From Ophelia neglecta (taxonomy: Eukaryota), in the NCBI GenBank assembly GCA_965285935.1, contig OZ260665.1:49724001-49788000 (forward strand): a stretch of DNA of 64,000 bases, read 5' to 3'. The number at the start of each line of letters is the position of its first letter. The first letter of the stretch is position 1. This document shows, piece after piece, positions 14,208 to 57,500 of this stretch. The position numbers and the translations under genes were made by a program. Under the pieces are notes generated by a model. That model was not told the DNA's origin and made no database searches. It saw only the letters and a list, made by a program, of their open reading frames with translations.

Positions 14208-16658
14208 ATGATTTCAGGTTGGTCTACGGGTAAATTATTCAATGTATTTGATCATATTAGCATGTATAATTTCATAGGTTTAAAGTTATGCCAATGACTA
14301 TAAGCCTATAGCCCAATTGTGATCAAATGTTCAACGATATAATCACTCCCTTAAAGTAATGAATAAGCTCCGCTTTCATCGATGTACAGCGGACGAATTG
14401 TACTGATTTTAAAAGGATTACACAGGAAACCCACGAAATTGAATTGTGGTGAAAACCTTAATTTGCTAATGAAGTCCCGAATTTTAAAGGTTAATATGCA
14501 GCAGTTTAAATGAAAACTAACACATTCTTTTCAAACAATCATCCGCTTGTCATGTTATTTATCCCCATCAGAATTCCACTTCTCTGATGACTTTGAGGTG
14601 AACGACGAAGTGAATAAAGCGTTCGATGAAAATGGCTTTGTCATTATCAGGTTTTATGTCACATATTATTGTTTTTTTTTATATAACATGCGTGCAATTT
14701 TTCAACATTCTGTGGTCAGTGTCACATGATGCAGAAGACTATGACAAGTATGCTTTACTATAAAGGGTATCGTTTTTACTTTAAATTACATTTTGACTGT
14801 GTAGAAACCTGCTGGATTCCGCCGACATTTTCACGCTGAAGAATGCCTTAGAACACAAGGATGGAGTGATGTCAAAGGTTCACTTAATCGATGACGCCAA
14901 GGGGCGAAAAGTGACGTCATCTCATTGGTGTAATCCTGGACACGATGTTACAGGAATGGTGGCTAGGTGCGAGAAAGTGGGTGGCACGTTTGAAAAGGTA
15001 ACTTTGCATTTAAAGCGAACTTTATGGAATTCACTTGCATGACTGCTGGAATTAGCCTTGTGACTACGCCGTAGGCGAAATATGAAAATGATACATTGGA
15101 AAATCTTGGGCTAACTATGCATAATAATCGAAATAATTCCCTAAGAAGATTTTGTGATATTCTTTAGTTGATATGCCCTGAACGCCTTACTTTTAGTTAA
15201 GCACGATCAAAAAAGACAAATTATCATTAGGATCTATTATGAGTTAAAAATGAAGTTTGTCTGTCCTATAATATTATCAGCTGCTTGGTGGAGAATTGTA
15301 CCAATATCATGCAAAAGTGATCATGAAAGAGCCGAGAACTGGCGGGTCCCATCACTGGCATCAGGATTATGGCTACTGGTATCACAACACCTGTGTCTAC
15401 CCCAACATGGGCACCGTCTGGATCGCGGTCGACAAGGCGACCAGGGAAAATGGATGTCTTCAGGTGACTAACATATTTTCCCGCCAGTGAGTACATTAAG
15501 AACAGTGTTCCAGTGCACAATATAAAAATTATTCTGTTGTAGTTCAAAAACTTCTTCCATACCTTCTAATTTCAAAAATATGCATGAGGTATTTCTTTGC
15601 AAAAGAATAAGTATACACCTTGACACCAGAATGCCAAATGTTACAGAACAAACAATAATGGATTAATACCATTTCACGTGTCGTTCAGTTGTTGGCTGGT
15701 TCTCAGAAGTTTGGTCGCATTGATCATCTGCGTATAGATGGCCAGAGCATCCAGCAGCAGACGGTGGTGGAGCCGGAGAGACTGGAAATGGTCAAACCTC
15801 TGTGTCAGCACGTGTACGTCGAATGTCAACCGGGAGACGCCGTCTTCTTCCACTGTAATGTCCTTCACAGCAGCTCTCCCAACACCAGTGACCAAAGGAG
15901 ACTGGCATTCCTAGTCGCCTATAACAGAGCCGATAATAACCCTATAAGAGAGCACCATTGGGCTTCGTATATTCCTCTCAATAAGGTTTGCTTCTTCTAA
16001 ACCGTTTGATCGTCATAAATGCCCATTTATATTCATTTAAAAATCTGATTATTTGTTTCTTATTCTGAGACTTTTCTGAGCCAGAGTAAAATAATAAAGT
16101 AACAACTCAAAGACTTAGCGACCACCCCATTGTTTCAGAGCGACAATAGCTATCTGGGGATAGATCCCTGCCGCCCTCATATACCACACACTGCTGTTAG
16201 GTCTCATTAAGAAAAGTTGCCAATAAATATCATCCCCATGTTCTTCTCATTGTACACCTTTTGCGAATATATCCACAAAAAGATGTGTATTACAATGGCA
16301 ACACTGAACAAACACGGATGATTCCCCAAACTTTCAGCGCCAACATTACCTAACACCATACCATTGTTGCTTCAAAGTTTCAAACAAAACATATCACAAC
16401 AGATATGCGTTGTGTTCAATATATAATCAACATATCTACTTTCACTAAAATACAACTATAAACCAACTTATCTGTTTTACTTACAATGTATTTTTGTGTT
16501 ATTCCATTAAGGTCCCAAGCAGTGCCATCAAAGAATGCACGAATATCAGCGACCTGTCAGGAAAAGGCTTTATGAACTCCGACAAGACTTATTTCACTCA
16601 AAGAGTAATGGAGAAGCGAGGACTAGTCGTTAAAGCTGACAAATTAGAAATGTCATGA
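14208..16658 (+). CDS. PhyH-family Fe(II)/2-oxoglutarate dioxygenase, copy 1 (ectoine hydroxylase / proline trans-4-hydroxylase-like), 302 aa, 6 coding exons
   Basis: Exons 14208-14217, 14572-14650, 14805-14997, 15281-15463, 15689-15985, 16512-16658 join in frame at GT-AG sites. Motifs: [20 protein letters not shown] (HxD), [34 protein letters not shown] (distal His), RR (2OG-binding Arg). The 10-nt first exon is inferred from phase and from parity with copy 3. Confidence 0.9.
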
Positions 16659-27900: not shown

Positions 27901-28633
27901 ACTGGCCAAAAAACATTTCAAACAAATCCACGTTGAGGTCATTAAATAACACTATGATTTCTGGCATAAATACCGAGCCGTTGACTAATGTATTATATTT
28001 TTTCGTATTTCGATATACTGTGATATATGCTGGAGATTCTCTATTGTTTCTAGGCAGAGCCCGGAGATGCAATTTTCTTTCATTGCAATACATTACATCG
28101 GAGCGATCCCAACGAAAGTTTATCCAGGAGAATGGCCTACCTTATCATGTATGGTCGAGTAGATAACGGCGTCCCAAGTGAACACGGCCTGCCTAACCAA
28201 ACCCCAATAGACAAGGTACAAGGATACAATGGCAATATAGAGCTCTATCATATGCAACACACATCTCTTCTTTTTCTACAATTTATTCACTTACATAGAA
28301 TTAACTTTTATTGGTTGTTCTTATTTCACATAAACATCTTTAACAGATTAATATTAATATAGCTAATTATTCAATCTTATAGCCTACACTATTATTTTGT
28401 AATGTGTACTTTGACTGCACGTATAATTGAAAGCTCTTTTCTCGCCAAAGGTGCCCAACGAGGCTATTCTTGATTGTGCAAATATAAGCAACTTGGAGGG
28501 GAAACATTTTATGGAACTAGACAAAGGACACAATCCTCCTTCAATCTACAAAGCCTCCCATCGCGACGTTGCGGCTAATAAAGTGGTCGAAGACGAACAG
28601 AAATTACTAAGAAGTCATTGGATTGAATATTGA
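24993..28633 (+). CDS. PhyH-family Fe(II)/2OG dioxygenase, copy 3, 319 aa, 8 coding exons
   Basis: Exons 24993-25002, 25272-25350 (GC donor), 25513-25705, 26808-26899 (GC donor), 27090-27180, 27788-27937, 28054-28215, 28451-28633. Internal exon lengths (79/193/92/91/150/162) are identical to copy 2. WHQDYGYWY ... HCNTLHRSDPN ... RRMAY intact. Confidence 0.88.
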
Positions 28634-33393: not shown

Positions 33394-36191
33394 ATGGCGC
33401 TGATAGCTCAAGTTCTGTGGGCAGGGGCCTTATTCCTGCTCTGTTTGGGGGTCACATTAGACCTATCAGTTGGTAAGTTCTCGTCTTGAGTTTTAATGGT
33501 CTTATTATACCTATATAAACGGGACCTAAAGTCGACTCTTGAATCGAAATAAAGTATTGTGTTGGGAAAAATATCCATCGATAACAAGTTAGCATGACTT
33601 AAAGCCCAAGAATGATTCAGCCACCAACACCCAGAATATCTTTGCACTGTATTAAGATGTGTACAATGCGTATATATAGGTCAAAGGCTTCAAAACTTTG
33701 GTTTGTGATTGCTTAAATTAGGATACCAAATCGAGTAGAGTGATCACCAATTAGTAAAATTAACTGACTTAGATTAAACAAGGCAGATGAAAAGAATGAG
33801 ATACTTAATTATATTAATCGTTTCAGCGGCGTGTGACACTGGACGCATTTTTGTGGGTAGCGTAAATGAAGAATTTCCGGACTTATTACCCGTCAATGGT
33901 ATATACTTGACGCAGGAGGGAGACCAGCATGGGGTACCTGTGTTTAAACATGAAACGCTGGACTTCTATTTGTACCATGTCGAGGGCAATCTGTTCGACT
34001 CGGGCCATCGTCCTGGTTACTGGGCAGTCGGACATAAAGTGGGGGGAGCCGATGCTCTTCTCAGCGTCCCTTCCGCTATTTCAAATCCGGGGGAAGTTGG
34101 TCTCGATTGGCGCGCCTGGAATTCGCGGACACAGACGTGGCAGCGAGACTTAAGACTTAATGCAAAGTGTGTGCCGGATAGCTTCCGCATGTGTAATGGC
34201 GGTCCTATTGTCATATCAGGGCTCGAAGCCGACCATTTGAACCAGGCCTGGCGATTGGGTGTATATGTTCCCACTAACGAAACATTCGACTTGAGGCCTG
34301 TTTATAAACACCAACTGATGCAGCAATACCTTTTCTTCCATCGCGGCTTGTGGCTGATTGGACCGGAAGTTGGAACAGTGTCTGGTGGCCTTTACGTCCC
34401 TGACAGTGCATGGAGGCCTGAATTTATCATCCAGGATTGGGTGGTGTTCAATGGTCACCACTTGGATGACGACCCTACAGTACGAGTTAACTGCCTCGAC
34501 GGTAGGTAGAGATAAATAGATAAATTTTGTTCGAGGAAGACTTTATATGTGTTTTATATGCATGCCGGACCTCATTAACTGCATGTAAGGGGAAGTGCAA
34601 GCGAAAAGGTTTCAGTTGTGTTTTTCGGTCGACACTATGAGTTATTGTTACGAAATTAAACACAGGTGATCATATATACCATGATACCAATAATGCCGAT
34701 ATTGATCTCATTGAATCCTCAGATGTAGCCGTCAGTGCAGATCTGGTTGATAGCCAAGAAACTGTTAGATGTCAGGAAAATTACTGCTTCAATGGCGGAA
34801 AATGTGTGAATGCAGACAACGGTCAGATACTTTGCAGGTGTTCACCAGGCTCGTTTGGAGACAGGTGTCAAGAAGGTGGTATTTCAATTTAACTCACTTT
34901 AAAAAGGAGTTCAGTTAGAAGTCTCGCAAGGGTTTTAGATTGGTATGTTTGTGCAAAGTTCTGAGCAAGTTGAAATTTCCTTGAAATAAGTATCATGACA
35001 CAAATGTTGCAGTTCTGCCATGCTTCTCTGATACACCTGATAATATGAAGATTAATACAAATAACATACATTGGCATTTACGTAATTCGCAAATAACCAG
35101 GTTCTAAGAGTAGATTTTATGATTTTAAAAGTAGCTGATTTGGATTTTTATATGGTGAAAAACGAATGTATCTGAAGGAGTATACTGATAATTTGGGAGA
35201 AATTCGAATATTAGTTTGAACGACAAAAAAATCCATTAACATTTTACAAATGTTTGGTGGCGGTATACATATCACGCCGGCAGATATGCGTATCTCATTA
35301 AAAATATTTAATCTGTCGGGACACGAGACCAAGGCTCGATTTAAGCAGTGGACAACGCCAGGCTACCATATATTCTTTTTGGCAAGTGGATTTTATATTT
35401 CAAATGTAATCCACTCAGCAATTTTGCGATAAAATACTTGAAATTTGTGTTGGAACAAAGCAAGTAATATTTGTGTTTGCTAAAAAAAACTAAACAAAGG
35501 CTTACAAGTTAAAAGTCATTGAAAGAATAATCTCCCTTTTTGTTATTTCAAACAGAAGGGCCAGATGACCTTCATTTGGGCTAGTAGAAAGTTGTAACTA
35601 TTGGAATATTGGCCAGTAGTTGCTTTATTCTCAAGTTGAGCCGTGTTAAACAATGGCATCAAAACACACTGTTAATTAGGTCAAGAGTTGATAAATTGCA
35701 CAACTCTTAAGATCGAACGGTTGACGCCAATCAATTTTATCTATATAATTATACCCACGCAAAGATGAAATTTATGTTTTTCAACCCTGGCGAAATGCCT
35801 TAGATTGAATTGAATTCAATGTGTCGTATGGTGATACTTTATATTTTGAATGAAGTTTTATCTGTGCTTGACAGTGGTTTCCTGTGATCCCATTCCCACC
35901 TCGAGCAGTTACACGACTGTGCAGACCACTGAGAGAAAGTTTCTAGATGTGGCATTTGTGACGTGTTTGAACCATAGTGGCGAAAGAGGCGTGACCACGG
36001 GGGTCGTCTGCCAATCTGACGGCACATGGTCGTCATTGCCAAATTGCCATCCGGGCATTCGTGAGGTCACTCCCGAGGTCCAAACCGAGGCAGACCCTGG
36101 GCCAATCACATCAGATCTTCCCAGGGCCATTGGCAACCTTAACCTCAGCATTATGGAAGTCATTAAACATCTGGACAACGACCGTGATTGA
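33394..36191 (+). CDS. Secreted protein A: signal peptide + two unnamed ~110-aa Trp/Cys repeats + EGF + Sushi/CCP-like domain, 407 aa
   Basis: Exons 33394-33472 (MALIAQVLWAGALFLLCLGVTLDLSV), 33827-34501, 34723-34875 (CQENYCFNGGKCVNADNGQILCRCSPGSFGDRC, EGF), 35875-36191 (CDPIP...VTC...VCQSDGTWSSLPNC, Sushi-like); all phase-1 GT-AG introns; AATAAA at 36340. Confidence 0.88.
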
Positions 36192-37149
36192 GAGGAGCTG
36201 GCTTGATCAACATCGCCAGAATATGAAATATATTACAACATATGAGTAAACCCACGAAACTTCAATAGAACTGAGTAATCTAACAAGTTTGATGATGCAT
36301 ATAATCTAATTATGGTTATTAATTTTTTAATTCATGTTTAATAAAGAAATAAGCCATCATACATTTTGACATTACGTCAGATCATCGGACTGATTTAACT
36401 TATTATGTAATGCATAAGTTAATACTTATTTTGTAATGCATTGGTTAATACGTATATTGTCCAATAAATCGGGGCCTTAACACATTTTTCAAACTGCGTA
36501 ATATAAACATATCATGTAACAAATCACTGGTATTCAAGCGACGCACCTAAATGCACTTTATAAAGTAACAAGCATATTTTACCTATTTATTAAAATGATC
36601 AAATCTTTCTTTATTTAGGCCGTGCTTGTCAAGTGTCTAAAAAGGAAGCGAATATTCTTTCTAGGGGGGGGGGGGGGGGGGGGGGGTTGCGTGGTAATAA
36701 TTGAATGATGGAAAATTTGGTGACGAAATATATGACAAATTTTTGTCTGTTGCCTGATTTCTAGTCTTATTACTGTTCAAGAATATTAGAGGCACAGCCA
36801 AGTTTGTCAGACAGAGAAGGGGTGCTAGATCGAGCAGACGTGTGCAAATCAAAAGTGCCATAAATAGTATAGTCTGTTCCATTTTTAACGCTGAAGCCAA
36901 AGTTATGTCGTAAAATGAAATCCGGATAAAGGAGCACAGTTTAAACGAATTTTGCTAATAAGCGATATATGATTGGAATTCAAAACGCAAGAGAAAAAAT
37001 TGAAAGAAATCAAAGAAAGACAGTGAAAGTTTGAATTGAATACATGCACACGAGGAAATTACGCGAGTTAGTCAAATAAGATAGTGAACCTAAATAAAGA
37101 TGACGTTTTAAGTATTAATACATTAAAGTATTAAATATAATGTTATTAT

Positions 37150-40395: not shown

Positions 40396-42299
40396 ATGAT
40401 GCTGACTTGTCAGGTTCTCAGGCCAGGGGCCTTATTCCTGCTCTGTTTGGGGATCACGTTAGACCTATCAGTTGGTAAGTGCTCTTTTTCAGAATCTCTA
40501 CCTTGAGATTTACTTTAAATGAATATTTGGGACCGACTGCTGAGCCATATTCTTCTATTATAGGTCTAAGCCTTACTTAATATTCAGTATTAAGTTCCAG
40601 CTTATTATACCTTGTACATGTACTTTCAAAGAATTCAAAGAATAAGGTTTACGGGTAATCTGTATGGGCTAGCCTAGTGCTGTTTGACAATTAAAAAATT
40701 GCCTGTTTCTGTTCTTTACCATGCAGGCAACAATATAAAAAACATCATTTTCTTATTGGTAATTTCAGAGGCATGTGACACTAAACGCATTTTTGTGGGT
40801 AGTGTAAATGAAGATTTTCCGGATGTATTACCCGTCAATGGTATATACCTAAAGCTCGAGGAAGACCAGCATGGTGTACCTGTGTTTAAACATGAAACGC
40901 TGGACTTCTATTTGTACCATGTCGAGGGCAATCTGTTCGACTTGGGGCCTCACCCTGGCTACTGGGCAATCGGACATAAAGAGGGGGGAAACGATGCTCT
41001 TCTCAGCGCCGCTTCCGCTCATTCAAATCCAGGGGAAGTTGGTCTCAACTGGCGCGTTTGGAATGCACAAACTCAAAGATGGGAGGCAGACAAAAGATTG
41101 AGAGCAAAGTGCGTGCCAAAAAGCTTTCATATCTGTCATGGCGGAAATATTGTTATATCAGGGCTGGAACCCGATCACACGAACCAGGCCTGGCGATTAG
41201 GAGTGTACATTCCCACTAACGAAACCTTCGAATTGAGACCGGTTTACAAACACAAACTGGTGGAGCAATATCTTTTTTTTCATCTTGGTTTGTGGTGGAT
41301 TGGACCAGAAGTGGGTCGTGTGGTTGGAGGCCTTTTCGTCCCGGACAATGCCTGGAAGCCTGAATTAATCGTCCAGGATTGGGTGGTTTTCAATGGCCAC
41401 CATTTTGATGACGACCCGACAGTACGAGTTAACTGCCTCGAAGGTATTTTTGACCGCTTTATACTAAGCTATCATTTTATTTAACTTCAACAGGGAAATA
41501 GAGCGATTTGTTTTCCCATTACGATAATTTAGGACCATAGCCTATCAAAGCATTTTGGCGTCCGTCGAATTTTTCTATAAACCAGTCACCTGGGTTCACA
41601 ACCAATCACTGTTGCCTAAAATCAATTCTTTTCTTTATCCACTGATTCAATCGGTCTTATATACTGTCCATGACTTAGACAGTCCTCTCTACCTAGTTAT
41701 CGAATTACTTACTTTTGATTTAACGATATATATACATGTATATAAATATAGACACATATAAAATGTTTTGGCCAGAATAATGTCCAAGGTACTATGCGAT
41801 GGCCTCGAATTTCACCTAATCCATTTTCTAAGGGTAAATTGTTATATATGAAAAAGGTCAATGATTCCCGATTGATAAAAAACGCAAGATGTGTATTCCG
41901 AATGTAAGAATATTTTGACCATCATTATTCATATGCAATGATCATACCTGACCTCTAGCATATGGCATTCGCCGATTTTCGCAAGGGGTTAAAGCAAAAA
42001 ATTATATTAAATGACTACTGACAATGACGATAGGTATAATAATCATATGTAAAGTTCTATTGGTGGCGTTGAATAGCAATTTGGGTTCTATCTGCATTGT
42101 CTCCTGTTGAATAAATCGTCACAGTGCAAGAATAATATGTTAGTTGTTTGACTACTAACCATGATAATAAAAAGTGGAATGAAGGAACCTTCTCCACATA
42201 TACCATATAAAGGGTGTTCACCTAACACAGAGCTGATTGACATCTTATTTTGTTTTAGATACTGCTGATTCTACGGATGCAGACCATGTTGATATATGA
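40396..42299 (+). CDS. Secreted protein B, tandem paralog of A, C-terminally truncated (signal peptide + two repeats only), 264 aa
   Basis: Exons 40396-40474, 40769-41443 (same 79/675-nt lengths as A, frame intact) and 42259-42299 ending in TGA before the EGF module. Confidence 0.75.
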
Positions 42300-42417
42300 G
42301 AAACGTACAATTGGCCAGTAAATTACTGCTTCAATGGCGGAATATGTGTGATTGCAGACAGTGATAACTTTTTTTGTATGTGTTTACCCTGCTCGTTTGG
42401 AGACCGATGTCAAGAAG
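42300..42417 (+). pseudogene. Decayed EGF-coding segment of gene B, downstream of the stop codon
   Basis: ETYNWPVNYCFNGGICVIADSDNFFCMCLPCSFGDRCQE aligns to exon 3 of A; first Cys is now Trp, an extra Cys is present, and the donor GT has become GG at 42418. Confidence 0.75.
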
Positions 42418-44708: not shown

Positions 44709-47377
44709 ATGGCTAGTTCGACAAGCCAGACGAGTGAGCTGGAGGAGGCTGTGGCTACGGACGACATTTCCCGCTTGCTTGGTTTGCTGCAGACCCAAGC
44801 GGAGGCTGATCTTCTAGTTCGGGTACACAATACACTGTTTACAGCCGCTCATCTATCAAAAGACAAATGTATCGAGGCCTTAGCGACTGCATACCCTGAC
44901 GAAACCCGTAAGTGGCTTTCAATATTACTGCAGGATGTTTATTTACTTTTTTTATGTTCTAAAAAAATAAGTGTAAGGTTTGCATTTCTAATGAAAAGAT
45001 GCAGTGTTATTGAAGTAAAAATGACATCACTACAATTAAGATGGGTTTCTAAACACAGTCTAAATTCTAGAAGAAAAAAAGTGGCCAATTTAGCCGATGG
45101 TCTGGTCAAATTTTAAGCAAATAAACATTTATATAAATAAATGTCTTGCTTGACAATAGACTTTAGCATTTGATAATATAATGAACCCTATTTGGACTCG
45201 ATAAAAGTCTAAATGTAGGCGTCTTTTACGGTCTGATTAAAGAAAAGAGGTAGTTAAGAAGAGCAATGCAATATATCATTCCAATAATAAACAGGAATGT
45301 CAGCTAAGAATCACTGCATTTTTTATTACATATGCACCAAATAGGAATCGTGGCATATGTATGTATGTTATTAGTTCCTCAATTAAATGAGAGTGTGTGC
45401 AATGGCACATAGTATAAATCCACAAATCAAGGGAACAGAAGCAAAGAAAACTATAGATTTCTTGAAATGACATTTGGACAATTTTGAAATGCAAAATGGC
45501 CAACACATTCGTCCGTACAGCAACACCGGTAGTCTGTACAATATATTTTCAGTCTGATTTCAAAGGACACGGAACTCAGGATCCCAACTACTGGCCCAGG
45601 GTTTGTAATCAGCAGGTTAAAACGGACATTTTTTTCAAATTCACTGATAAATATTCCACCTGTCCATCTAAATATAACACCATATAACCTATAAAGATTT
45701 GGCGTTAATTTAAAATGAAATCATCATTAACGAAAAGCACATTGATAATCACACTGATTTGTTTTTGTCACAGGAAATTGTGTCAATGACACGTGCCACA
45801 AGCACTCGGGTCACACCCCTCTGTCCCTGGCAGCGTTTTCCGGTACTATTGAGACGCTCGACGTCCTGCTACATTATGACGCCGATGTGTTGGTGTGTAC
45901 AACACAGGGGTACCCGCCCCTCGAGGTGGCATGTACGGCGGGTTCCAGGGAGAAGGCGCAGCGTCTGCTGCAGAAAACACTCGCCAGTATCAAGGAGTCG
46001 AATGTGGCCGAAGTTACCTTCATCTTGTACAGGGGTTTGGTAGAAGCTGCTTTCAAGGGGAGGGCGGAAATTGTGTCAGACTTCCTAAAAGTGGGAATAT
46101 CTGTCAATCTCAACCTCGACGATGACATTGGTAGGAAAGGAGGAGAGTTTAATTATAGGCCATGATCTATTTTATACCATAAACGGTTTATACCATAAGA
46201 GTTTTAAGACTTTTTTTTACGTACTGTCTGTTTTATGATTTGGAGTCAATAAATAATATTTCTCTTATAGGATCGCCTTTGTATAATGCCATAGAATCTG
46301 GAAGTGAAGAATGTGTGGATGTGTTGTTGGTAAATGGGGCTGATATTGAGTGTTTGAGACGCTCTACCCAACAAACACCTCTCATGAAAGCTGCCGAAGT
46401 TGGTAATACATATGCGTTAAAGCGGTTATTAGCCGCCGGAGCTGACATCAATAGACAGACAGACGAATGTTCAAGCGCCCTTATTTTGGCATGTCATTTT
46501 GGACAGGCCGAAAGCGTCAATATCTTAATTGGTAGGCCTAAGACGAATAAGTCAAATTTTGCATTCTGCTTTGACTGTTTTCGTAACTTTTCGGAAGTAT
46601 TCGTTAATATCCTAATATTTAGATTGCAGGTGTAGACCATGCATCACTTATCCACTTGTTTATTCATTACTTATTTTTAAAGAAAATGGAGCCGATATAA
46701 AAAAGAAGAATCCCTGGAACTACTCCGCTTTGTTTATGGGTGCTGATAGTCTGGATATATTGAAGAGGCTCGTCAGAGAAGACCTGGACCTCAATGAACT
46801 GGTAGGGGAGCGCGGCGAGGCAGCTTTACATTTAGTGACAGTCATCGGATCAATTCCAGCAATCAAACTTTTACTAGAATCTGGAGCGGATATTGACTTA
46901 CGAACTAAGTGGAATGAGACGCTGCTATGGCTTGCGGCATGGAAAGGACACACCGAAGTCGCCAGATTCATCATTCAGATGAACTGTGATCTGGACGTTC
47001 CAAGTCATGGATGCCACGTATGGGCATGGGAATATCTGCCAATTGAGGTGTCGCTAGGTATCGGCCACTTCCCAATACCAAGAATGTTAGTATATGCCGG
47101 GTGTGCACTGCGGAACAGTCTGTACTTTACACAAGATGAGGCTGGTCCGATTGAAGAGATACCACATGTTCGGTTGAGAAAGGAAGTACTTCTCCTTCTC
47201 AAATCGTGTCCTACTGAATACGAGTGGTTCCGGGTATATGTAACTAATGCCAATCGGCTCATGCATATATGTCGTCTGCAAATCAGACGTTATATTGGCT
47301 CAAATATATTTGAAAGGGTTGAAACATTACCCATTCCTAAAAGTATAAAAGCATATTTGTGTTTTACGGATTTGTAG
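44709..47377 (+). CDS. Ankyrin-repeat and SOCS-box (ASB-type) protein, 503 aa
   Basis: Exons 44709-44907, 45774-46130, 46271-46531, 46683-47377 join in frame. Ankyrin repeats: GHTPLSLAAFSG, GSPLYNAIESG, QTPLMKAAEVG, GEAALHLVTVIG, ETLLWLAAWKGH. C-terminal SOCS box RLMHICRLQIRRYIG...LPIPKSIKAYL. AATAAA at 47450. Confidence 0.9.
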
Positions 47378-48568: not shown

Positions 48569-51500
48569 CTAAAAATCCGATGTTCCTTCGCCCTCGGCCT
48601 GCATGTGAGCCTCCAGAGCCTGCATGCTTCTCGACTGGCGCGAGTGGTCTTGGTAGCCCCCGTACTGCATCTCTTGGCCTTGGCCGTGCTCTTGGTAGCG
48701 GGCCGATTCCGTCGGGGCCTGCTCGGGTTGCCTTAGCGCGTAACCCCTCGGTTTTTGCTTGCGGCCTTCTTCCTCGGCAATCAAGGCAAACACGCTAGAC
48801 TGTGCTGGGTTATATGTCTTGTTAGGGCCTCCAGTGCCGGTTCCTGTTACTCTGCAATAAAACATTATTAATATTACATCTTTCGAGCTTATTTTCACCG
48901 TTTGTATCTTTCAGGAAAAATCTGAAGACATGATAGTGTTCTCCAGGCCTGAATGATAATGAATATAAAAGGGGTAGTCCTATTAGACTACGAAAGCGTG
49001 TCTTTCAATATTATACATCGATAACGACCCCTAGGATCATATTTTTAAGGACATGAGGACTTTTATTTGAGTTAATGAGTCACTGATGAGTCACTATAGG
49101 TCTTTATGCCTATTAGATTGATAGGAACAACTATTACAACACATTACTTACTGCATGGTGCCATATCCGGCGCCGCCTTTAGTCTGTTGTTCAAGCGTGT
49201 TCTGTACATTTTCCCTCGAGTAGAGTCCAATCGGCGTGTTGTACTGGAGGTGGGCTACCTTGGCGTCTCCTTCGTGGGTGGCGGCGTCGTGCTGCTCAAT
49301 GACTTGTCTACCTCCTGGACCGTGGTGGACGGACTGTACTCTAGGGTGATGCGGCTGGACGGAAGCTGGACTATGATGAGGCACATGGGCCGGTGCCGGA
49401 GCGGGAGCTGGAGCGGGTCTCTGGCGAGGTCGCTGCATCTCCCGGGATTGGGCCGCAGCCCTCTGCTCCCCCGGTATCAGATTACCTTGTGCATGCATTT
49501 CCCAGGGCCTCGGACCACCGGACGAGCTTAGAGTGCCTATCCAGGCAGGTGGTTCATCTGGTATATGGTGGATCTCTTGTGGTTTGGCATAGCCTCCGGC
49601 GTCTGGACGGTTGACTGGAGGCGGACAGGGTCTGAGTGGCATCCCTTTAGCGAACGAGGCGGATTTCGCCTGTTTTGATCTTGCGGGAGTCCAGCCTGGT
49701 TCCAGCATGGAGGAGGGCAAGTCCGGCTCAGGTTTCCTGAATGGCCTTGAAGCCCCCAGTGGTCGGTTCTGCTGAGTACGGGCCGCTGCAATACCAAAGG
49801 AGAAATCAGAAAAGAATGTGAACAATGCGGAAAAAAGAAGAGTAAGTGTTCTAAATGCTGCGGTGACTTCTTTATCCCATGCGACTAGTGGACCCTCCGA
49901 ACATCAATCTCGACAAGGTACTGGGCTAGAATAGTGGTCGGTGGAGCACACAAGGAGAAAGACACAACACGCGTGTTGGACAGTCGGTGAAAGACATGCT
50001 TTTATGATAAGACATAATTACGGACATCTCGAAATCATCTGTTCAGTCAACTTACAATGTGTACACTCTTCTACTCTATCAGCATCCATGAACGAATGAC
50101 CTGGCTTTCTTTACCAAAACACTCAATTTTTAACAACTAGTGCAGCTAGCTAGGTATGGAAGATATTCTATAGGTAAAGAGAGCTAAGTTCATTGTAAGA
50201 TTTCCTGCATTGAATTTTTAAAAGACTCAAGAAAGTGTCCTTTTATGTGCCTTTTAAATTTGATTATTTGGCAAATACCTCCAATAAAAGAGTACTGGCT
50301 TAAAAACTGGGCCTAAAGACTGCAGGAGATGTCAGGAAATCATAAGAAAGGTGTTAACGTGGGTACCTTCTGTCAGAGCGGCAGGCCTAAATAGTGGCAT
50401 GGGGTTTCTAAAATTGGAAGACGATGATGGAGTGACAGGCTTTCGGAAAGCGCTTTGATTCCTGTACTGACTGCCCATTGGTCCTGAAGCAGGGAAACAA
50501 TTAGGTTAGCACGTGGTGCATTAGGCATGAACAGGTGATGTGAATGTGAAGATTTATTAGGGCGAGAACAAAATCGGCAGAAGAACTGTGAAATGGACGA
50601 TATAATTTGGGTGAACGTTGGGCACCTTCTAAGCGGAAGTGGTGTTTAAGCCAAAGAGGGTTAATAGGTAAGTACAGGAATGCAAGCGCTGAAACTAGGT
50701 CAGGAGACAGGGCAAGAAGAGATAAAAAGCAGCGTAAATATTCAAGTGAAAAGGAGAACGGAAAGCCTACAAACAATAAAAGAAAACATAAGAAATAAAC
50801 AGATCACTCTACCATTTATATTTGATCTGTAAGCAGCACAATTAAAATAATAAAGTAACTGTATCACATTGAACATTAAGAGTAATTACTAAGGAACACT
50901 TCAATGACACAGACTGGGCACGCATTATAATAAAGTATCTAAGGGAGTTGAAGTTTAGTAAGCAACCTTCTAGGTTGCTCAAACCTAAATTATATCGTGT
51001 AGTATCTATTTATTTGAAGGATCTTTGTTGCCACCTTGACCGCTTCCGAAGAAAATGCAAAAATTAACATTCAGTATAATGATAAAGATACTGTAGTGTC
51101 ATGATGAAGATGAAACAATTCTGATGTAAAATGTCAACCTGTTTCTTCCCTTTCCTAGCATACACTTCTTTTAAACTGTTTGAGTTACACTTGGTGAATT
51201 AAGTTTTAGCTTTGAATTAATTTCAAATGGGGGAGATGAAATATTGCAATATTAGTTTATCACACCCTTTTTGTGTGGAACAGACAAACTGAGACCCCAA
51301 GCCGTGAGGATAGTGGACAGGTTGTTTTATTAAGTACATCTATGAAAATGTATTTTGTGGTTGCTCCCAAATATAAATGCGGAATATGCTCGCATTTTTG
51401 GTAGTTCGAGGTATTTTTAGAATGTGACATTATTCCTTTTCTGTTGATATATTAACCATACATATCGAATTATCGTTTTAAACATATAGACGAATCAGTC

Positions 51501-54500
51501 GTGTTCCTACATAATTAACCGACTCCCAGGAACAGACCACTTATGGCCATTCAATTATCATGGGTATATTTCTCCAGACAGTGTTGATGAATCAATGCTT
51601 CATAGTCGCCAACTATCCATGCTAGAAGGCAAGCAGTCGAACCAAGCTAGGTCATGGCATGTCTATCCATGCTACATCGTCCAACGTCTAGCCATGCTAT
51701 ATGGTCGCATGTCCGTAACCAGGATAGCGGGCCATGGTCGCGCGTCAATGGTAAAACAGAATGATTATCCAACTGACATTTCGTTGATATCAAACTCTCT
51801 TTCGCATTAAGTCAATTTTTTTATAATTTTTCATCGATGTACAATAAAACTGACAATACAAAAGCTCGTAGTGTTGTGATAAGTGAAGGATATAAAATTT
51901 AGGTCAGAATAAAGATACCAAACCTTCCGGAGCGACAAGCCAGTGTTGCACAATGTGGCCATGAAACTCGCCAATGCAGGAATGGAGTTTGCTATGCCAG
52001 GAGGGTTAATCCTCAAGTAGTATTTCTCTTATTTTAATATCTAAAAAGTGCCTTATAATTATATCAAAAGGCACAGCGGATGTGTTCAAAGTGTCCCAAT
52101 TGTAAACATGTATTATTTTCTTTCGATTTCATGACGAATGTCTTTTTTTAAGATGTTTTCAGCAAAAGTTTATATTAAATTGGTAGCTTGTGTATACATG
52201 TAAATCCCACTTATTCTAAAGATTGCAGTTGAATGATCCATTTGATTTCCTTGCTCAAACAAGCGGGTTACACAGGAATGTCTGCTACAGGATCTCATAA
52301 GCCATGTTGCTCCTCATTTGTAAATGCTAGGTAATTAACGAGGTCGCACCAGGTGTCGTGGACAAAGAAGAACTCAATACTCGACAAGTTGCAGCAAATG
52401 TTGGAAAAAGGTGAATGCATGGCAACTCCAGTCCTATTGTTCGTTTTTCATATAATAAGGCGTGCTATTGTCCTTCTACAACCGATGAGCACCTATCCCC
52501 ATTTTGGTAACTGTGTGCATCTTTAGGCCTAGATATGGCTGACTATAGAGATATTATCTCCCTTCCCGGCATCTTCATTGACATGATCATCCGTATCAAA
52601 TGCTTCAGCAATGCGAACTTACTTCAATCACATTTTTGTGACTAAATATATTAAATGTTTTTTTCCATTTGGTCCAAAATCTACTAAAAATATAACAGGC
52701 AATTTTTGAGTTATTTGGCAACACAAAGAACACGGTAGTCTCGTGACATAAGTACTGAACAAGACTACTCAGGTTGGCACTGATAGAGATGGTTCAACAT
52801 GGATTCCTTGGACAGTGATAGCTTGTTTCAGGCATGGAAACTGGCATCCGATAGCATTCGTACATCTCAGGAAGTCTGCTCTCTAGCTTCGTTACTTGTT
52901 GAGTTCTGACAATTAATATAATGTGCATGAAGGGTATCCGATGACCTCCATGGCACCAGATTAGTGGCTGGTGTCTGTACATAGAGGGGAATTGTGATTA
53001 ACTACTGTTTTCTCATATCCAAATGAATTGGTGGTGTCTTTTCCTGCTTAATAACCTGCCATTTGCTTTGTCCTTACATGACTGAGATGGAAATGTGCTG
53101 GTGTTTGGCATTCATCAAGGTGATGACAGGTAATAGCAGTGCTACGGACCCTAACAAGCTGGGATGTTCTTTGGGCAGCAATAGGTTATGGGGATTATGT
53201 GAAAAACAGCAGAGTAGCTGTCACTTGTGGGCGTGGCGTGAAAAGTTAAACAGAATATACCATAATTGCACGGAAACAGAAATTCACCTTATAGAATCGC
53301 ATGGCTCATCCAGGGGCAAGGGGATGGCTGTTTGTGCAACACTGAGTTGGTGTTAACCAGGAAAATCACGCATCTAGTGCATAGGATAAAGGGTCACTAT
53401 CCTAGTCGTGTGTTAGCTCTACATATTACCGCTCACTATTGACCACAGGACACATGCTTACAACAACATAAAATAAAAGTGCACACTATAGATGTAATTT
53501 TAGATAAATGAAGTTGGTGTGCGCTTATTTCAGAACGTTTATAAATGCACAGCGGAGATATTAGTGCACTCGTGCGTAGATGTATGGCGACATCTGGTGG
53601 GGGACAGCAAGAGAAGTTGGCGACTGAGGCATCTGGAGAAGAGGGCGCTCCCCAACGCTCGTGCTTACAATTGTCGTCTGCTTTACTTACGACTCTGATG
53701 AGCAAAATCAGGCTTGTTGAATCTCTTTCGTATATCCCTCACTGATATTTGTTCATAGTCTTCGTCTTCCTCGCCGCCATGATGAGGGGCATATTCAATC
53801 TGTGTGTCTGTTCAAGGCATTTTTTAATTTATTGTGCACTGAGCTTTTAGGATCAGGTTCCCATATATACATGATTGTTACTTACGTATGCCTAAGAGTG
53901 GGCTTTAGAAAGTGAGTCAAAATAAAATGTTATTTCCTGACGATGAAGTTTGTTGAAAAGTGTCTGCTTTCAAACTAAATGAGCCAAAAGTATGGCATAT
54001 TGCAAGGATGTTGTGCTGAGGAAATATAACATTTAAACGGCCCAATCTTCGACAGACTATACAAGGAGCGGCAACTTAAAAACAAAAGACTCACATAGAT
54101 AAAGCCTAAACAAAGCATTATGATTCATGATAAAGTATTACATTATAAAAAGACCATCACCTCTTCCTTAACCCGGACACAAAGTTCAAGAGGAGTTTGC
54201 GTCGGACTCGGCCATTCCAGAAATAGGGGCACAATACAAAAATGTGTATGGGCTGTTCTCACTCTACATGTAAAACTGAGATATATTACACTATTAGGAA
54301 TTAACCAAAGACGGGATAAAGTGTGTTCATCTACAGACCATTCACAAGACCATTGAGTGTTGTGTTATCAAGGCGGCAGCAGCGGCTGCACCAACGTGAG
54401 TTGAAAGGGGCGTGAAACACCGCACAAAAATGACGGGAAATAATTGTCTGCTAAATATATTCCAACAGTAAAATTAATCAGACCTATTTTCTGAGATGCA

Positions 54501-57500
54501 TTTGGGCTAGGTCCTTTTCCTTATCCCTCGATGTAATTGTTAATCAATGCCTCAAAACCACTTGTCACATCCGTTAGCAATATGTACAAGGAGTATTCCA
54601 ATGGTGGGTGCTACGAGATCAACAGTCTAAGTCTGGAAATCAGCCCCTGGGAATGACTTCAATTTACTAGTCAATGTCTAATTATAATTTTTATGATAAT
54701 ACTGGCTGGTTAAATTGCTTTCTGGCTTCTTGCAGTGCGAAAACACGAAGTTGCACCATTTTGGAGCACGTGGTATCTCACCAGTGGCAGTCTGCATGGT
54801 TTCTATACTGGTATACATGAGAGCTGTTCAACGGATGTTAGTATTTAGTGCAGGTGTTTGGGATCACATTGTCTACCAGAACAGCCATGTCCATAATTAT
54901 TAATGTCTTTACCGATACTGTATTTGTCTTTGACATTAACGTTGAAATACGAAAGACGTTTGCATTTTAAATTGCATAGCCACCTTATACAGCCGTTTAG
55001 TAGTTCTTATAGTACGTCCCTTTCACAGCAGTTATCCATTGACATCGTCCTTAGTATGTTAAGTGAAGAGGTTTTGCAACTTTATTTTTGCTTCTGAAAA
55101 TGTGCCTCTAATTCTGGAATGACCGACCACTAAGGCCTCCAATGACCGACCACTAAGGCCTCCAATGACCGACCACTGAGGCCTCTAATGACTGACAAAT
55201 AAGGCCGCTAAGCACTTTCAAGTGATTTTTGGACTATGGCGGTTCATCAGTTCGTCAGTTCGTTTATTTCATTCTTGCGCACCATGCCGCCCCCCATCCA
55301 CACGACCTACCTTGATAAGGAGGGGCTGGTTGCGTGAAACTCTTTTTCAGATCGTGGACGGAAGCGGGCTGATATTCCTCTTCGTATCCGGCATCCCTTC
55401 CTGGCTCCCAGACGGCGTGGTCAAGGGTCTGTTGGACGCGGTGGAGCATGCCGCCGCCCGAGCCTTGGGGTCGATAACCCCCGCCGCCCCCACCACCATG
55501 GTGGGAGTAATCGGCCCCATACATGGGGCCACCGCCTCCCAAACGTGAGAGAGATGACATAGGCTTAGTGGGGTACGTTCCTAAGGGTGGAGCAGGCTTC
55601 AGAGCAGAGGTGTCTGACGGACGGGAACGGACGTACTGAAACAACAAGAGGTAAACAAAACATGTTAAATATGTCTTGAAATTTACACATACCAATACTT
55701 ATAAATATGCCAGAACACGATGATCATGACTTTAATACCTTGCATAGGAAGTAGGCTATCTAAGGCCGGCTAATAATAAGATAAATTAACCAGAACGCCC
55801 TAATGACTGAATAATGTGAAAAGGCCTCGTTCTTTAAGAAAGTTTGTATCTTATCAACTTGAACGTTTGGGTGTCTGTTCATTTCAAGATTTCAGTTTGT
55901 TAATAAAAAAAAAAACAATAATCCATAATAGGAAAGTGTGATGGGAATAGCGTCCGAGGGGCATATTAGGGGTAAACAGGACAGCCATCATTTAAGAAGA
56001 CACTAGGCAAAAGACATAGTTCATTTTCATCATCCTCAATTTAAGTTTACAGAAGAGCTAGCCCACAGAAAGTTCATGCAATCGGTGTTCTAAAAAACAG
56101 TATATGAATTTATTATTTTAGTTTATATCTAAGGGCAATTTGGGTTGAAACTCCTATATTGACAAATATGCCATTTTTCCTTTACCTCGATATCCGTTTA
56201 TTGAATATATCACCATATATTTAGCATTTTTAAGTTTTCAATGGGGCAATGCCAATTAAGTAGCCATGTATAGTAGCAAGAAACTATATCTAATTTGTAT
56301 AGTAAAAATAATGAATATTCCTGGTTGATATATATATATATTATACAGGTCAAGGTGGTCATCTGAGCGCTTAGAATGCAGAGTCAATTTTCAATAATCT
56401 TATTAAAAAGTTTTTATAATTGGCTAGTTTAAAGGTTACTATCTGATATAAAAATATTGCTGTAGTCTCAAAAAGAATTCCATCATTACTAAACATGTTA
56501 GACCCTCTATTTTATCTGTGTGTCAGCGTAAACTGTATTATTTTTCAGTGATTTCTGCCAAATCGTGGCTAAATCCTGTATTATTCCTAGGCTAAATTGA
56601 CAGTTTATGATACATTATTGCAAAAGAATAAACAGAAAGTAAGTTTATGAGTACACGCTGCTCCGCCTTAATTGCCAAGGTTACACTTGGAATGATTTTT
56701 TTTCAAATGAAATTCGTGGATAGAATTTACTAAGATTATTTTAACCACAGTAATAACATAATTAAGTTAACGAGATCCATAAACTGGAGTTGTTTCCTGT
56801 GGTTCATGGGAGCGGCCCCATCTCCTAGAATGATTATTATTTACAACCAGCAAAGCGCAATAGCCTGGCTGAATTGAAAGGTTAATACGCAAATAAAATG
56901 CAAAAATAGTACATAGCAACGGTGCAATTTTGTGCCTGAAAATAAATCAGTCGAAAAATAACGCTTTCATTTTTTAGTAAGGGTTAAGTCGGCAAATTTT
57001 CAAGTTGTCACTTTTTAAAATAGCTTGTCCATCTCTTCATTTATAACAGATAAAGCATCGGCCCTGTCGTCTCACTCGTGTTAAACATTTCTAGAGGCAC
57101 ATTGTTAAACGAGGCTTATGTCACCGAAATCGAGGTCTGCCAATTTTTTGCTATTGCGTAGCTTTATTGTTGCCAAAATATAAACGAGCTCGAAGAATCA
57201 TCAGCCATTTTAGTGATTTATAGACAGTGCTTCCAAATGTATTTATGTTCAATGGTGTAATCATTTTTGCAGCGTTGAACTACTCTCATCTGTTCCATCC
57301 TATCTACTGGCCGGAAATTTCATCAGGCCCAACATATCTCATACCAGTGAAACAGCCTAGTTGAGGCGTAAAATTCCAGATTGACTTCTTTCCGTCGCGA
57401 GTTTAGAGAACGGGGTATGTCTGCTCCTAGCTTGGGATAGATAGCACGTGTTTGTCTGACGGTTAAGCACTTGGTATGAACCATAATAAAATCTCCCAAT

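What the first reader, a model, noticed from the sequence alone, without database searches (positions are those of the whole stretch)
33827..34501. Unnamed, tandemly duplicated extracellular domain behaving as a phase-1 shuffleable module
Seen: one 675-nt phase 1-1 exon encodes two ~105-115-aa repeats sharing C..I...G(I/V)Y...PV(F/Y)KH....YL(Y/F)...W.(V/I)G..VG....L.VP.....P.....DW..(W/F)N......D..(L/V)...C. Each repeat is bracketed by a Cys pair, and an NET sequon is conserved in both paralogs. The exon is fused to a signal peptide, EGF and Sushi. I recognise no named family. Inference: a disulfide-closed, aromatic-rich beta domain, possibly glycan- or pathogen-binding or a matrix protein; the best candidate here for an undescribed protein family.
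Basis: partly seen in the sequence, partly recalled or inferred. Interest (0 to 1): 0.7.

Follow-up and report, generated by a model that had tools for sequence, protein, structure and literature searches.

The report
Unnamed mobile domain across eukaryotes
This exon encodes two copies of a roughly 100-residue protein domain that matches no Pfam family but turns up in many unrelated proteins of invertebrates and single-celled eukaryotes, both secreted and apparently inside the cell, where it likely works as a docking module that steers enzymes and receptors to their targets.

The parts
33394..33472 (+). Gene A exon 1: start codon and predicted signal peptide; phase-1 GT donor
   Evidence: 19-residue hydropathy maximum 2.26 at the N-terminus, at most 0.89 beyond residue 30
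33827..34501 (+). Gene A exon 2 (675 nt, phase 1-1): two copies of the unnamed domain D
33832..34170 (+). Repeat D1, Cys to Cys, 113 aa
   Evidence: model
34192..34494 (+). Repeat D2, Cys to Cys, 101 aa, with the NET sequon
   Evidence: models
34723..34875 (+). Gene A exon 3 (153 nt, phase 1-1): acidic linker and EGF domain
   Evidence: PF00008 E 1.7e-6
35875..36191 (+). Gene A exon 4: Sushi-like domain, polar tail, stop; no transmembrane segment; AATAAA at 36340
   Evidence: (PF00084 E 0.004)
40396..40474 (+). Paralog B exon 1: predicted signal peptide
40769..41443 (+). Paralog B exon 2 (675 nt, phase 1-1): D1-D2, 177 of 224 residues identical to A, dN/dS 0.26
42259..42417 (+). Paralog B exon 3: in-frame stop at 42297-42299, decaying EGF remnant, GG in place of the GT donor; no Sushi exon found in the window. 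Predicted product: signal peptide-D-D plus a short tail

Best explanation
The exon encodes two copies of a roughly 100-residue domain (here D) that matches no Pfam family, is predicted to fold as a compact beta-rich unit, and likely acts as a non-catalytic docking module, most likely for proteins, that brings its host to a substrate or surface. Shown: coding exon, repeat, wide family, many unrelated partner domains, Cys pair tracking secreted hosts. Predicted: fold, splicing, terminal disulfide in secreted copies. Inferred: binding role; paired copies giving two-site binding; gene A as a secreted, non-enzymatic two-site binder spaced by EGF and Sushi, the soluble relative of a membrane protein with the same ectodomain on a TMEM151 membrane module; paralog B as a shortened version that keeps only the D pair.
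For: Family: 159 clusters at E<=1e-3; my profile finds 336 domains in 152 of 152 proteins, exactly two in 84. Partners: 50 of 118 hits scanned have a Pfam family; 10 of the 50 are proteases of four classes (4 astacin, 2 trypsin, 2 caspase, 2 calpain), 3 have ubiquitin-ligase parts (2 U-box, 1 BACK), 2 glycosyltransferase-2, 1 tyrosine kinase. Conserved positions are G, Y, R, P, W, L; apart from R (74%) and the terminal Cys, no His, Asp, Glu or Ser exceeds 47%, so no catalytic set. Cys pair 66 of 67 versus 1 of 30. AlphaFold2 pLDDT 95.3 and 96.8. D1/D2 in register with the membrane or cnidarian type in 11 of 11 proteins against 1 of 21 other pairs; this genome has its own D-D-EGF-Sushi-like-TMEM151 gene on C2. 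An amphioxus protein has the order D-D-EGF-EGF-trypsin, like surface-targeted coagulation proteases (recalled).
Against: No ligand, partner or expression was tested. Partner domains suggest but do not show function. No structure with a known ligand matches. Ten of the 50 annotated hits have lectin or pattern-recognition type partners (my grouping), as many as the proteases, which fits glycan binding equally well. Compartments were assigned by me from partner domains; repeats within one protein and related proteins are not independent, and 104 of 336 domains were dropped for short flanks. The tree was a quick one on 106 columns with many open forks. I had no model coordinates, so neither the disulfide nor a surface pocket was checked.
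Confidence: 0.5

Rival explanations
1. D is a lectin-like carbohydrate-binding module, and gene A is a soluble pattern-recognition or mucus protein.
For: F, W, Y and H make up 16.5% of the exon product; conserved Arg and aromatics. Hosts include C-lectin, F5/8, tectonin, SRCR, pentraxin, PAN and IgGFc-binding domains (10 of 50 annotated hits) and two glycosyltransferase-2 proteins. Four genes in this genome lie downstream of IgGFc-binding exons.
Against: The same core is kept in calpains, caspases and U-box proteins, where glycan ligands are less expected. Many of the conserved aromatics may be core residues; covariation could not separate core from surface.
Confidence: 0.25
2. D binds membranes or anionic surfaces, like Gla or C2 domains, and so localises proteases on either side of the membrane.
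For: A lipid ligand exists in both compartments. D-D-EGF-EGF-trypsin order in amphioxus and repeated fusion to calpain. Basic residues in the R-P-V-Y-K-H strand.
Against: K and H are only about 40% conserved; no acidic calcium-binding cluster is conserved.
Confidence: 0.12
3. D is a stable structural spacer without a specific ligand.
For: Arrays of up to 9 copies; compact fold with both ends close in sequence pattern; low identity between copies.
Against: It often occupies the N-terminal or C-terminal end of the host; paralog B keeps only D-D under purifying selection, dN/dS 0.26; D1 and D2 keep separate identities from jellyfish to this genome.
Confidence: 0.08
4. D is a diverged member of an already described fold or family, such as the DNMT5 segment 872-1158 or an entry in a library not held here.
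Confidence: 0.12

Closest known systems
Class 1-1 mobile modules of animal extracellular proteins (EGF, Sushi/CCP, CUB, MAM, SRCR, TSP1)
   Same: Phase-1 borders, terminal Cys pair, about 100 aa, mixed with exactly these modules in many orders.
   Different: No Pfam family; also used without the Cys pair in apparently cytosolic proteins of animals and protists; one host gene has phase-0 and internal introns.
ApeC domain (PF16977) and the candidate novel lancelet domains of PMC4284660
   Same: Invertebrate module found outside model-organism databases; the paper reports 941 candidates and verifies ApeC as a peptidoglycan-binding domain (passages).
   Different: No ApeC hit in any Pfam scan here. 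Candidate 0056 has a similar length (101 aa; 18 and 22 copies), but its figure and sequences were not visible, so identity is open.
Segment 872-1158 of Cryptococcus DNMT5 (PDB 7r76), probably the alpha/beta region of ATPase lobe 1
   Different: Middling Z, 11% identity, large insertions, no sequence-profile support. That the segment is the paper's alpha/beta region is my inference; the numbered figure was not seen.
TMEM151 family (PF14857)
   Same: Relatives of gene A's whole D-D-EGF-Sushi-like ectodomain are fused to a TMEM151 module in P0086 and on contig C2 of this genome.
   Different: Gene A has no membrane segment. Human TMEM151A/B lack such an ectodomain (recalled, not tested).

Membership tests
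Class 1-1 mobile extracellular module | Domain exon flanked by phase-1 introns | tested here: met
   Both window paralogs. In five other genes the acceptor nearest the first Cys is phase 1 for 10 of 10 domains; after the last Cys 5 phase-1 donors, 4 stops, 1 undetermined. Predicted sites picked by me, some with alternatives. Exception: the C2 gene, phase 0 with internal introns.
Class 1-1 mobile extracellular module | Occurs with many unrelated partner domains | tested here: met
   50 of 118 hits scanned carry Pfam partners of many kinds; one D1-D2 pair is shared by astacin, kinase, CUB-Sushi, F5/8-lectin, tectonin and EF-hand hosts, clades of 8 with SH-aLRT 100 and 99.
Class 1-1 mobile extracellular module | Confined to secreted or cell-surface proteins | tested here: not met
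   Also in caspase, calpain, U-box, BACK and CH proteins, where 1 of 30 domains has the Cys pair. Location inferred from partners.
Class 1-1 mobile extracellular module | Terminal disulfide actually formed | not testable with these tools
Any Pfam-A, NCBIfam or PHROG family | Profile hit over the domain | tested here: not met
   0 Pfam families at E<=10 for either paralog; among 84 members of A1 only partner domains recur, other families hit at most 2 members weakly; NCBIfam 0 of 40 and PHROG 1 of 40 members at E 0.0035.
SMART, CDD, PANTHER, CATH-Gene3D entries | Profile hit over the domain | not testable with these tools
   Libraries not held.
DNMT5 segment 872-1158 | Same fold | tested here: inconclusive
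DNMT5 segment 872-1158 | Sequence-profile similarity | tested here: not met
   No DNMT5 chain at E<=10 with A1 or A2.
Lectin / carbohydrate-binding module | Fold of a known lectin | tested here: inconclusive
   Only non-significant beta-trefoil and galectin rows, E 0.1 or worse.
Lectin / carbohydrate-binding module | Binds glycans | not testable with these tools
   Needs glycan arrays.
D-D-EGF-Sushi(-TMEM151) gene family | D1 and D2 homologous position by position, followed by EGF and Sushi-like domains | tested here: met
   11 of 11 in register against 1 of 21 other pairs; shared short Cys-to-Cys linker; architecture.
D-D-EGF-Sushi(-TMEM151) gene family | Membrane anchor or TMEM151 module | tested here: not met
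   Gene A stops after Sushi and a polar tail; P0003 and P0004 also lack one. Gene A belongs to the secreted branch.
Lancelet candidate novel domain 0056 (PMC4284660) | Same sequence family | not testable with these tools
   Only the caption was readable.

The most novel reading that the evidence does not exclude
D is an ancient, undescribed eukaryotic interaction domain with a fold not yet solved as a free-standing domain. It began inside the cell (calpains, ubiquitin ligases; structural look-alikes in giant-virus proteins), gained a terminal disulfide and phase-1 exon borders, and became a promiscuous extracellular module of invertebrates. It forms the ligand-binding tip of a receptor whose membrane part is a TMEM151 module, and gene A is that receptor's soluble decoy. 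This would give the poorly understood TMEM151 family an ancestral receptor form that can be tested.
Probability: 0.3. Interest if true: 0.78.

Novelty: new variant of a known kind. Interest (0 to 1): 0.56.

Why it matters
An unannotated 100-residue module sits in astacins, trypsins, caspases, calpains, ubiquitin-ligase proteins, a receptor kinase and IgGFc-binding (mucus-type) proteins across invertebrates and protists, so one profile and one ligand assay would annotate a gap in many proteins. It is a clear case of one domain used on both sides of the membrane with an optional Cys pair. The domain is small and predicted with high confidence, so its structure and ligand are directly testable. 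The TMEM151 fusion offers a lead on that family.

Full report
OBSERVATION. The exon at 33827-34501 is 675 nt, bounded by AG and GT, phase 1 on both sides, and open for 224 codons. Its four Cys bracket two repeats of 113 and 101 residues, whose local alignment scores 86 against 27.8 +/- 5.3 (max 60) in 1000 shuffles. Joined in frame with exons at 33394-33472, 34723-34875 and 35875-36191 it gives a 407-aa protein: hydrophobic N-terminus, D1, D2, EGF (PF00008, E 1.7e-6), Sushi-like (PF00084, E 0.004, under the cut-off), polar tail, no membrane segment. Splicing is predicted only. The one NET sequon is in D2.

PARALOG. A second copy has the same first two exons (40396-40474, 40769-41443), 177 of 224 residues identical, no gaps, dS 0.47, dN 0.12, ratio 0.26. 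Its third exon has an in-frame stop at 42297, has lost the first EGF Cys and has GG at the donor; tblastn finds no second Sushi exon in the window. Three contig sets from one sample show no difference at the stop or the donor. With the donor gone the stop would lie in the last exon, so B may make a short signal-D-D protein (inferred); a recent pseudogene is not excluded.

NO NAMED FAMILY. Pfam gives nothing for either paralog at E<=10, and across 84 aligned members only partner domains recur. NCBIfam hits 0 of 40 and PHROGs 1 of 40 members weakly. PDB sequence searches give no credible hit. SMART, CDD and InterPro could not be searched.

FAMILY. phmmer over 1.84 billion representatives gives 159 proteins at E<=1e-3, 150 listed. 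A 102-position profile built from them finds 336 domains in 152 of 152 proteins (the 150 plus P0001 and P0002): one copy in 38, two in 84, up to nine. The query had two copies, which favours two-copy hits. Best-kept positions: G-x-Y (84, 76%), R-P-V-Y (74, 85, 67, 85%), L (76%), W-x-x-G (96, 80%), P (85%), W (93%). Of 30 representatives looked up, 14 gave an organism (some through a cluster member): Branchiostoma 7, Owenia fusiformis 3, Tigriopus 1, Sanderia malayensis 1, Vitrella 1, counting 13, plus a Symbiodinium-labelled calpain; the rest are unnamed. Presence or absence in vertebrates and prokaryotes was not established.

PARTNERS. I scanned 118 of the 150 listed hits against Pfam; 50 had a family (37 of 51, 13 of 67). 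They include astacin (4), trypsin (2), caspase (2), calpain (2), U-box (2), BACK, CH, torsin, EF-hand, glycosyltransferase-2 (2), a Sushi-tyrosine kinase, CUB, MAM, SRCR, TSP1, C-lectin, F5/8, tectonin, PAN, ShK, trefoil, IgGFc-binding, TMEM151 and an SVEP1-like giant. I grouped hosts by partner. Of 336 domains, 232 had full flanks. Both terminal Cys are present in 66 of 67 domains (32 proteins) with extracellular partners and 1 of 30 (10 proteins) with intracellular partners, while the core motif is shared. The counts are not independent and two intracellular assignments (P0012, P0088) are doubtful, but the contrast is large.

SHUFFLING. Searches of this genome with distant members found further loci. 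Two genes on C5 and one each at two C7 loci have D-D downstream of IgGFc-binding exons (one C7 link spans about 13 kb and is uncertain); C12 has D-D followed by trypsin exons; C2 has D-D-EGF-Sushi-like-TMEM151. For the ten domains of the first five genes the acceptor nearest the first Cys is phase 1 in 10 of 10; after the last Cys there are 5 phase-1 donors, 4 stops and 1 undetermined. These sites were picked by me from candidate lists, and three domains have alternative acceptors of another phase. The C2 gene is a counter-example: phase-0 acceptor and introns inside the domains. In a quick tree (90 rows, 106 columns, many open forks) one D1-D2 pair with a shared linker forms two clades of 8 (SH-aLRT 100, 99) across astacin, kinase, CUB-Sushi, F5/8-lectin, tectonin and EF-hand hosts, two of them named as Branchiostoma: a pair moved as a unit. 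Several other pairs group within their own protein, so tandem duplication happened repeatedly. Lancelets are reported to shuffle 1-1 exons actively (PMC4284660, passages).

GENE A'S OWN FAMILY. P0003 and P0004 share the whole secreted architecture at 43-45% identity. Profiles of D1 and D2 from 13 close relatives place both domains of 11 of 11 more distant proteins (membrane-anchored forms, fragments and the jellyfish protein P0071) in register, against 1 of 21 unrelated pairs. The pair therefore likely predates the cnidarian-bilaterian split (one named cnidarian), and gene A is likely the soluble relative of a membrane protein that in P0086 and on C2 ends in a TMEM151 module.

MECHANISM. There is no conserved catalytic set, and the domain is repeatedly joined to enzymes that need targeting, in both compartments. 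The simplest shared role is a non-catalytic docking module, and a protein ligand best covers caspase, calpain and U-box hosts (0.5). Glycan binding (0.25), membrane binding (0.12), spacer (0.08) and a diverged known family (0.12) remain; the last is not exclusive of the others. For gene A I infer a secreted two-site binder held out by EGF and Sushi, possibly a decoy or carrier for the ligand of the membrane form. None of this was tested.

LITERATURE. Eight searches of the open library (listings only, apart from the two papers named) showed no paper naming the domain. The supplement of PMC4284660 lists an unnamed 101-aa lancelet candidate family (0056; 18 and 22 copies); only captions were readable, so the domain may have been counted there without description.

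VERDICT. Real, unnamed in the libraries held, widespread and promiscuous: a new variant of the mobile-module kind, notable for use on both sides of the membrane and for a fold without a clear solved match. Function unproven. Interest 0.56.

Noticed in passing
G000:C2:22273000-22277300 (L035:4000-8322, + strand): Gene predicted to join a D-D-EGF-Sushi-like ectodomain to a TMEM151 module (PF14857, E 1.8e-22); the same fusion is in P0086 and, more weakly, P0050. Suggests a receptor-like form of the TMEM151 family.
   Followed up: partly
G000:C5:47804000-47817400; C7:65901400-65916600; C7:41050000-41056800: Four predicted genes with IgGFc-binding exons upstream of a C-terminal D-D pair, an architecture also seen in P0081 and P0129.
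   Followed up: partly
G000:C12:28075500-28079300: D-D exons followed by trypsin exons, like amphioxus P0045 (D-D-EGF-EGF-trypsin) and copepod P0027.
   Followed up: partly
P0021, P0033: Caspases with three or four D repeats in place of a death-fold prodomain; P0021 is from Branchiostoma lanceolatum.
   Followed up: partly
BFVD rows 1, 3, 4, 15: Structural look-alikes of D in an Aureococcus virus calpain, a 106-aa Clandestinovirus protein, a phage protein and a Mimiviridae RING protein; all E above 0.001.
   Followed up: no
window 15659-16000 and 28054-28362 (+): Exons of two tandem phytanoyl-CoA dioxygenase (PhyH)-family genes.
   Followed up: partly
window 44709-47377 (+): Ankyrin-repeat and SOCS-box gene immediately downstream of paralog B.
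   Followed up: partly
window 48569-55698 (-): Exons with DUF4749, typical of Zasp/PDLIM muscle proteins (recalled).
   Followed up: partly
L023:6271-7776 (G000:C5, +): Single-ORF MGAT4-family glycosyltransferase right after one IgGFc-D-D gene.
   Followed up: no
window 34161-36167: Contigs show many allelic differences in gene A; of 12 listed coding ones, 7 are synonymous and 5 change a residue (the list was cut).
   Followed up: partly
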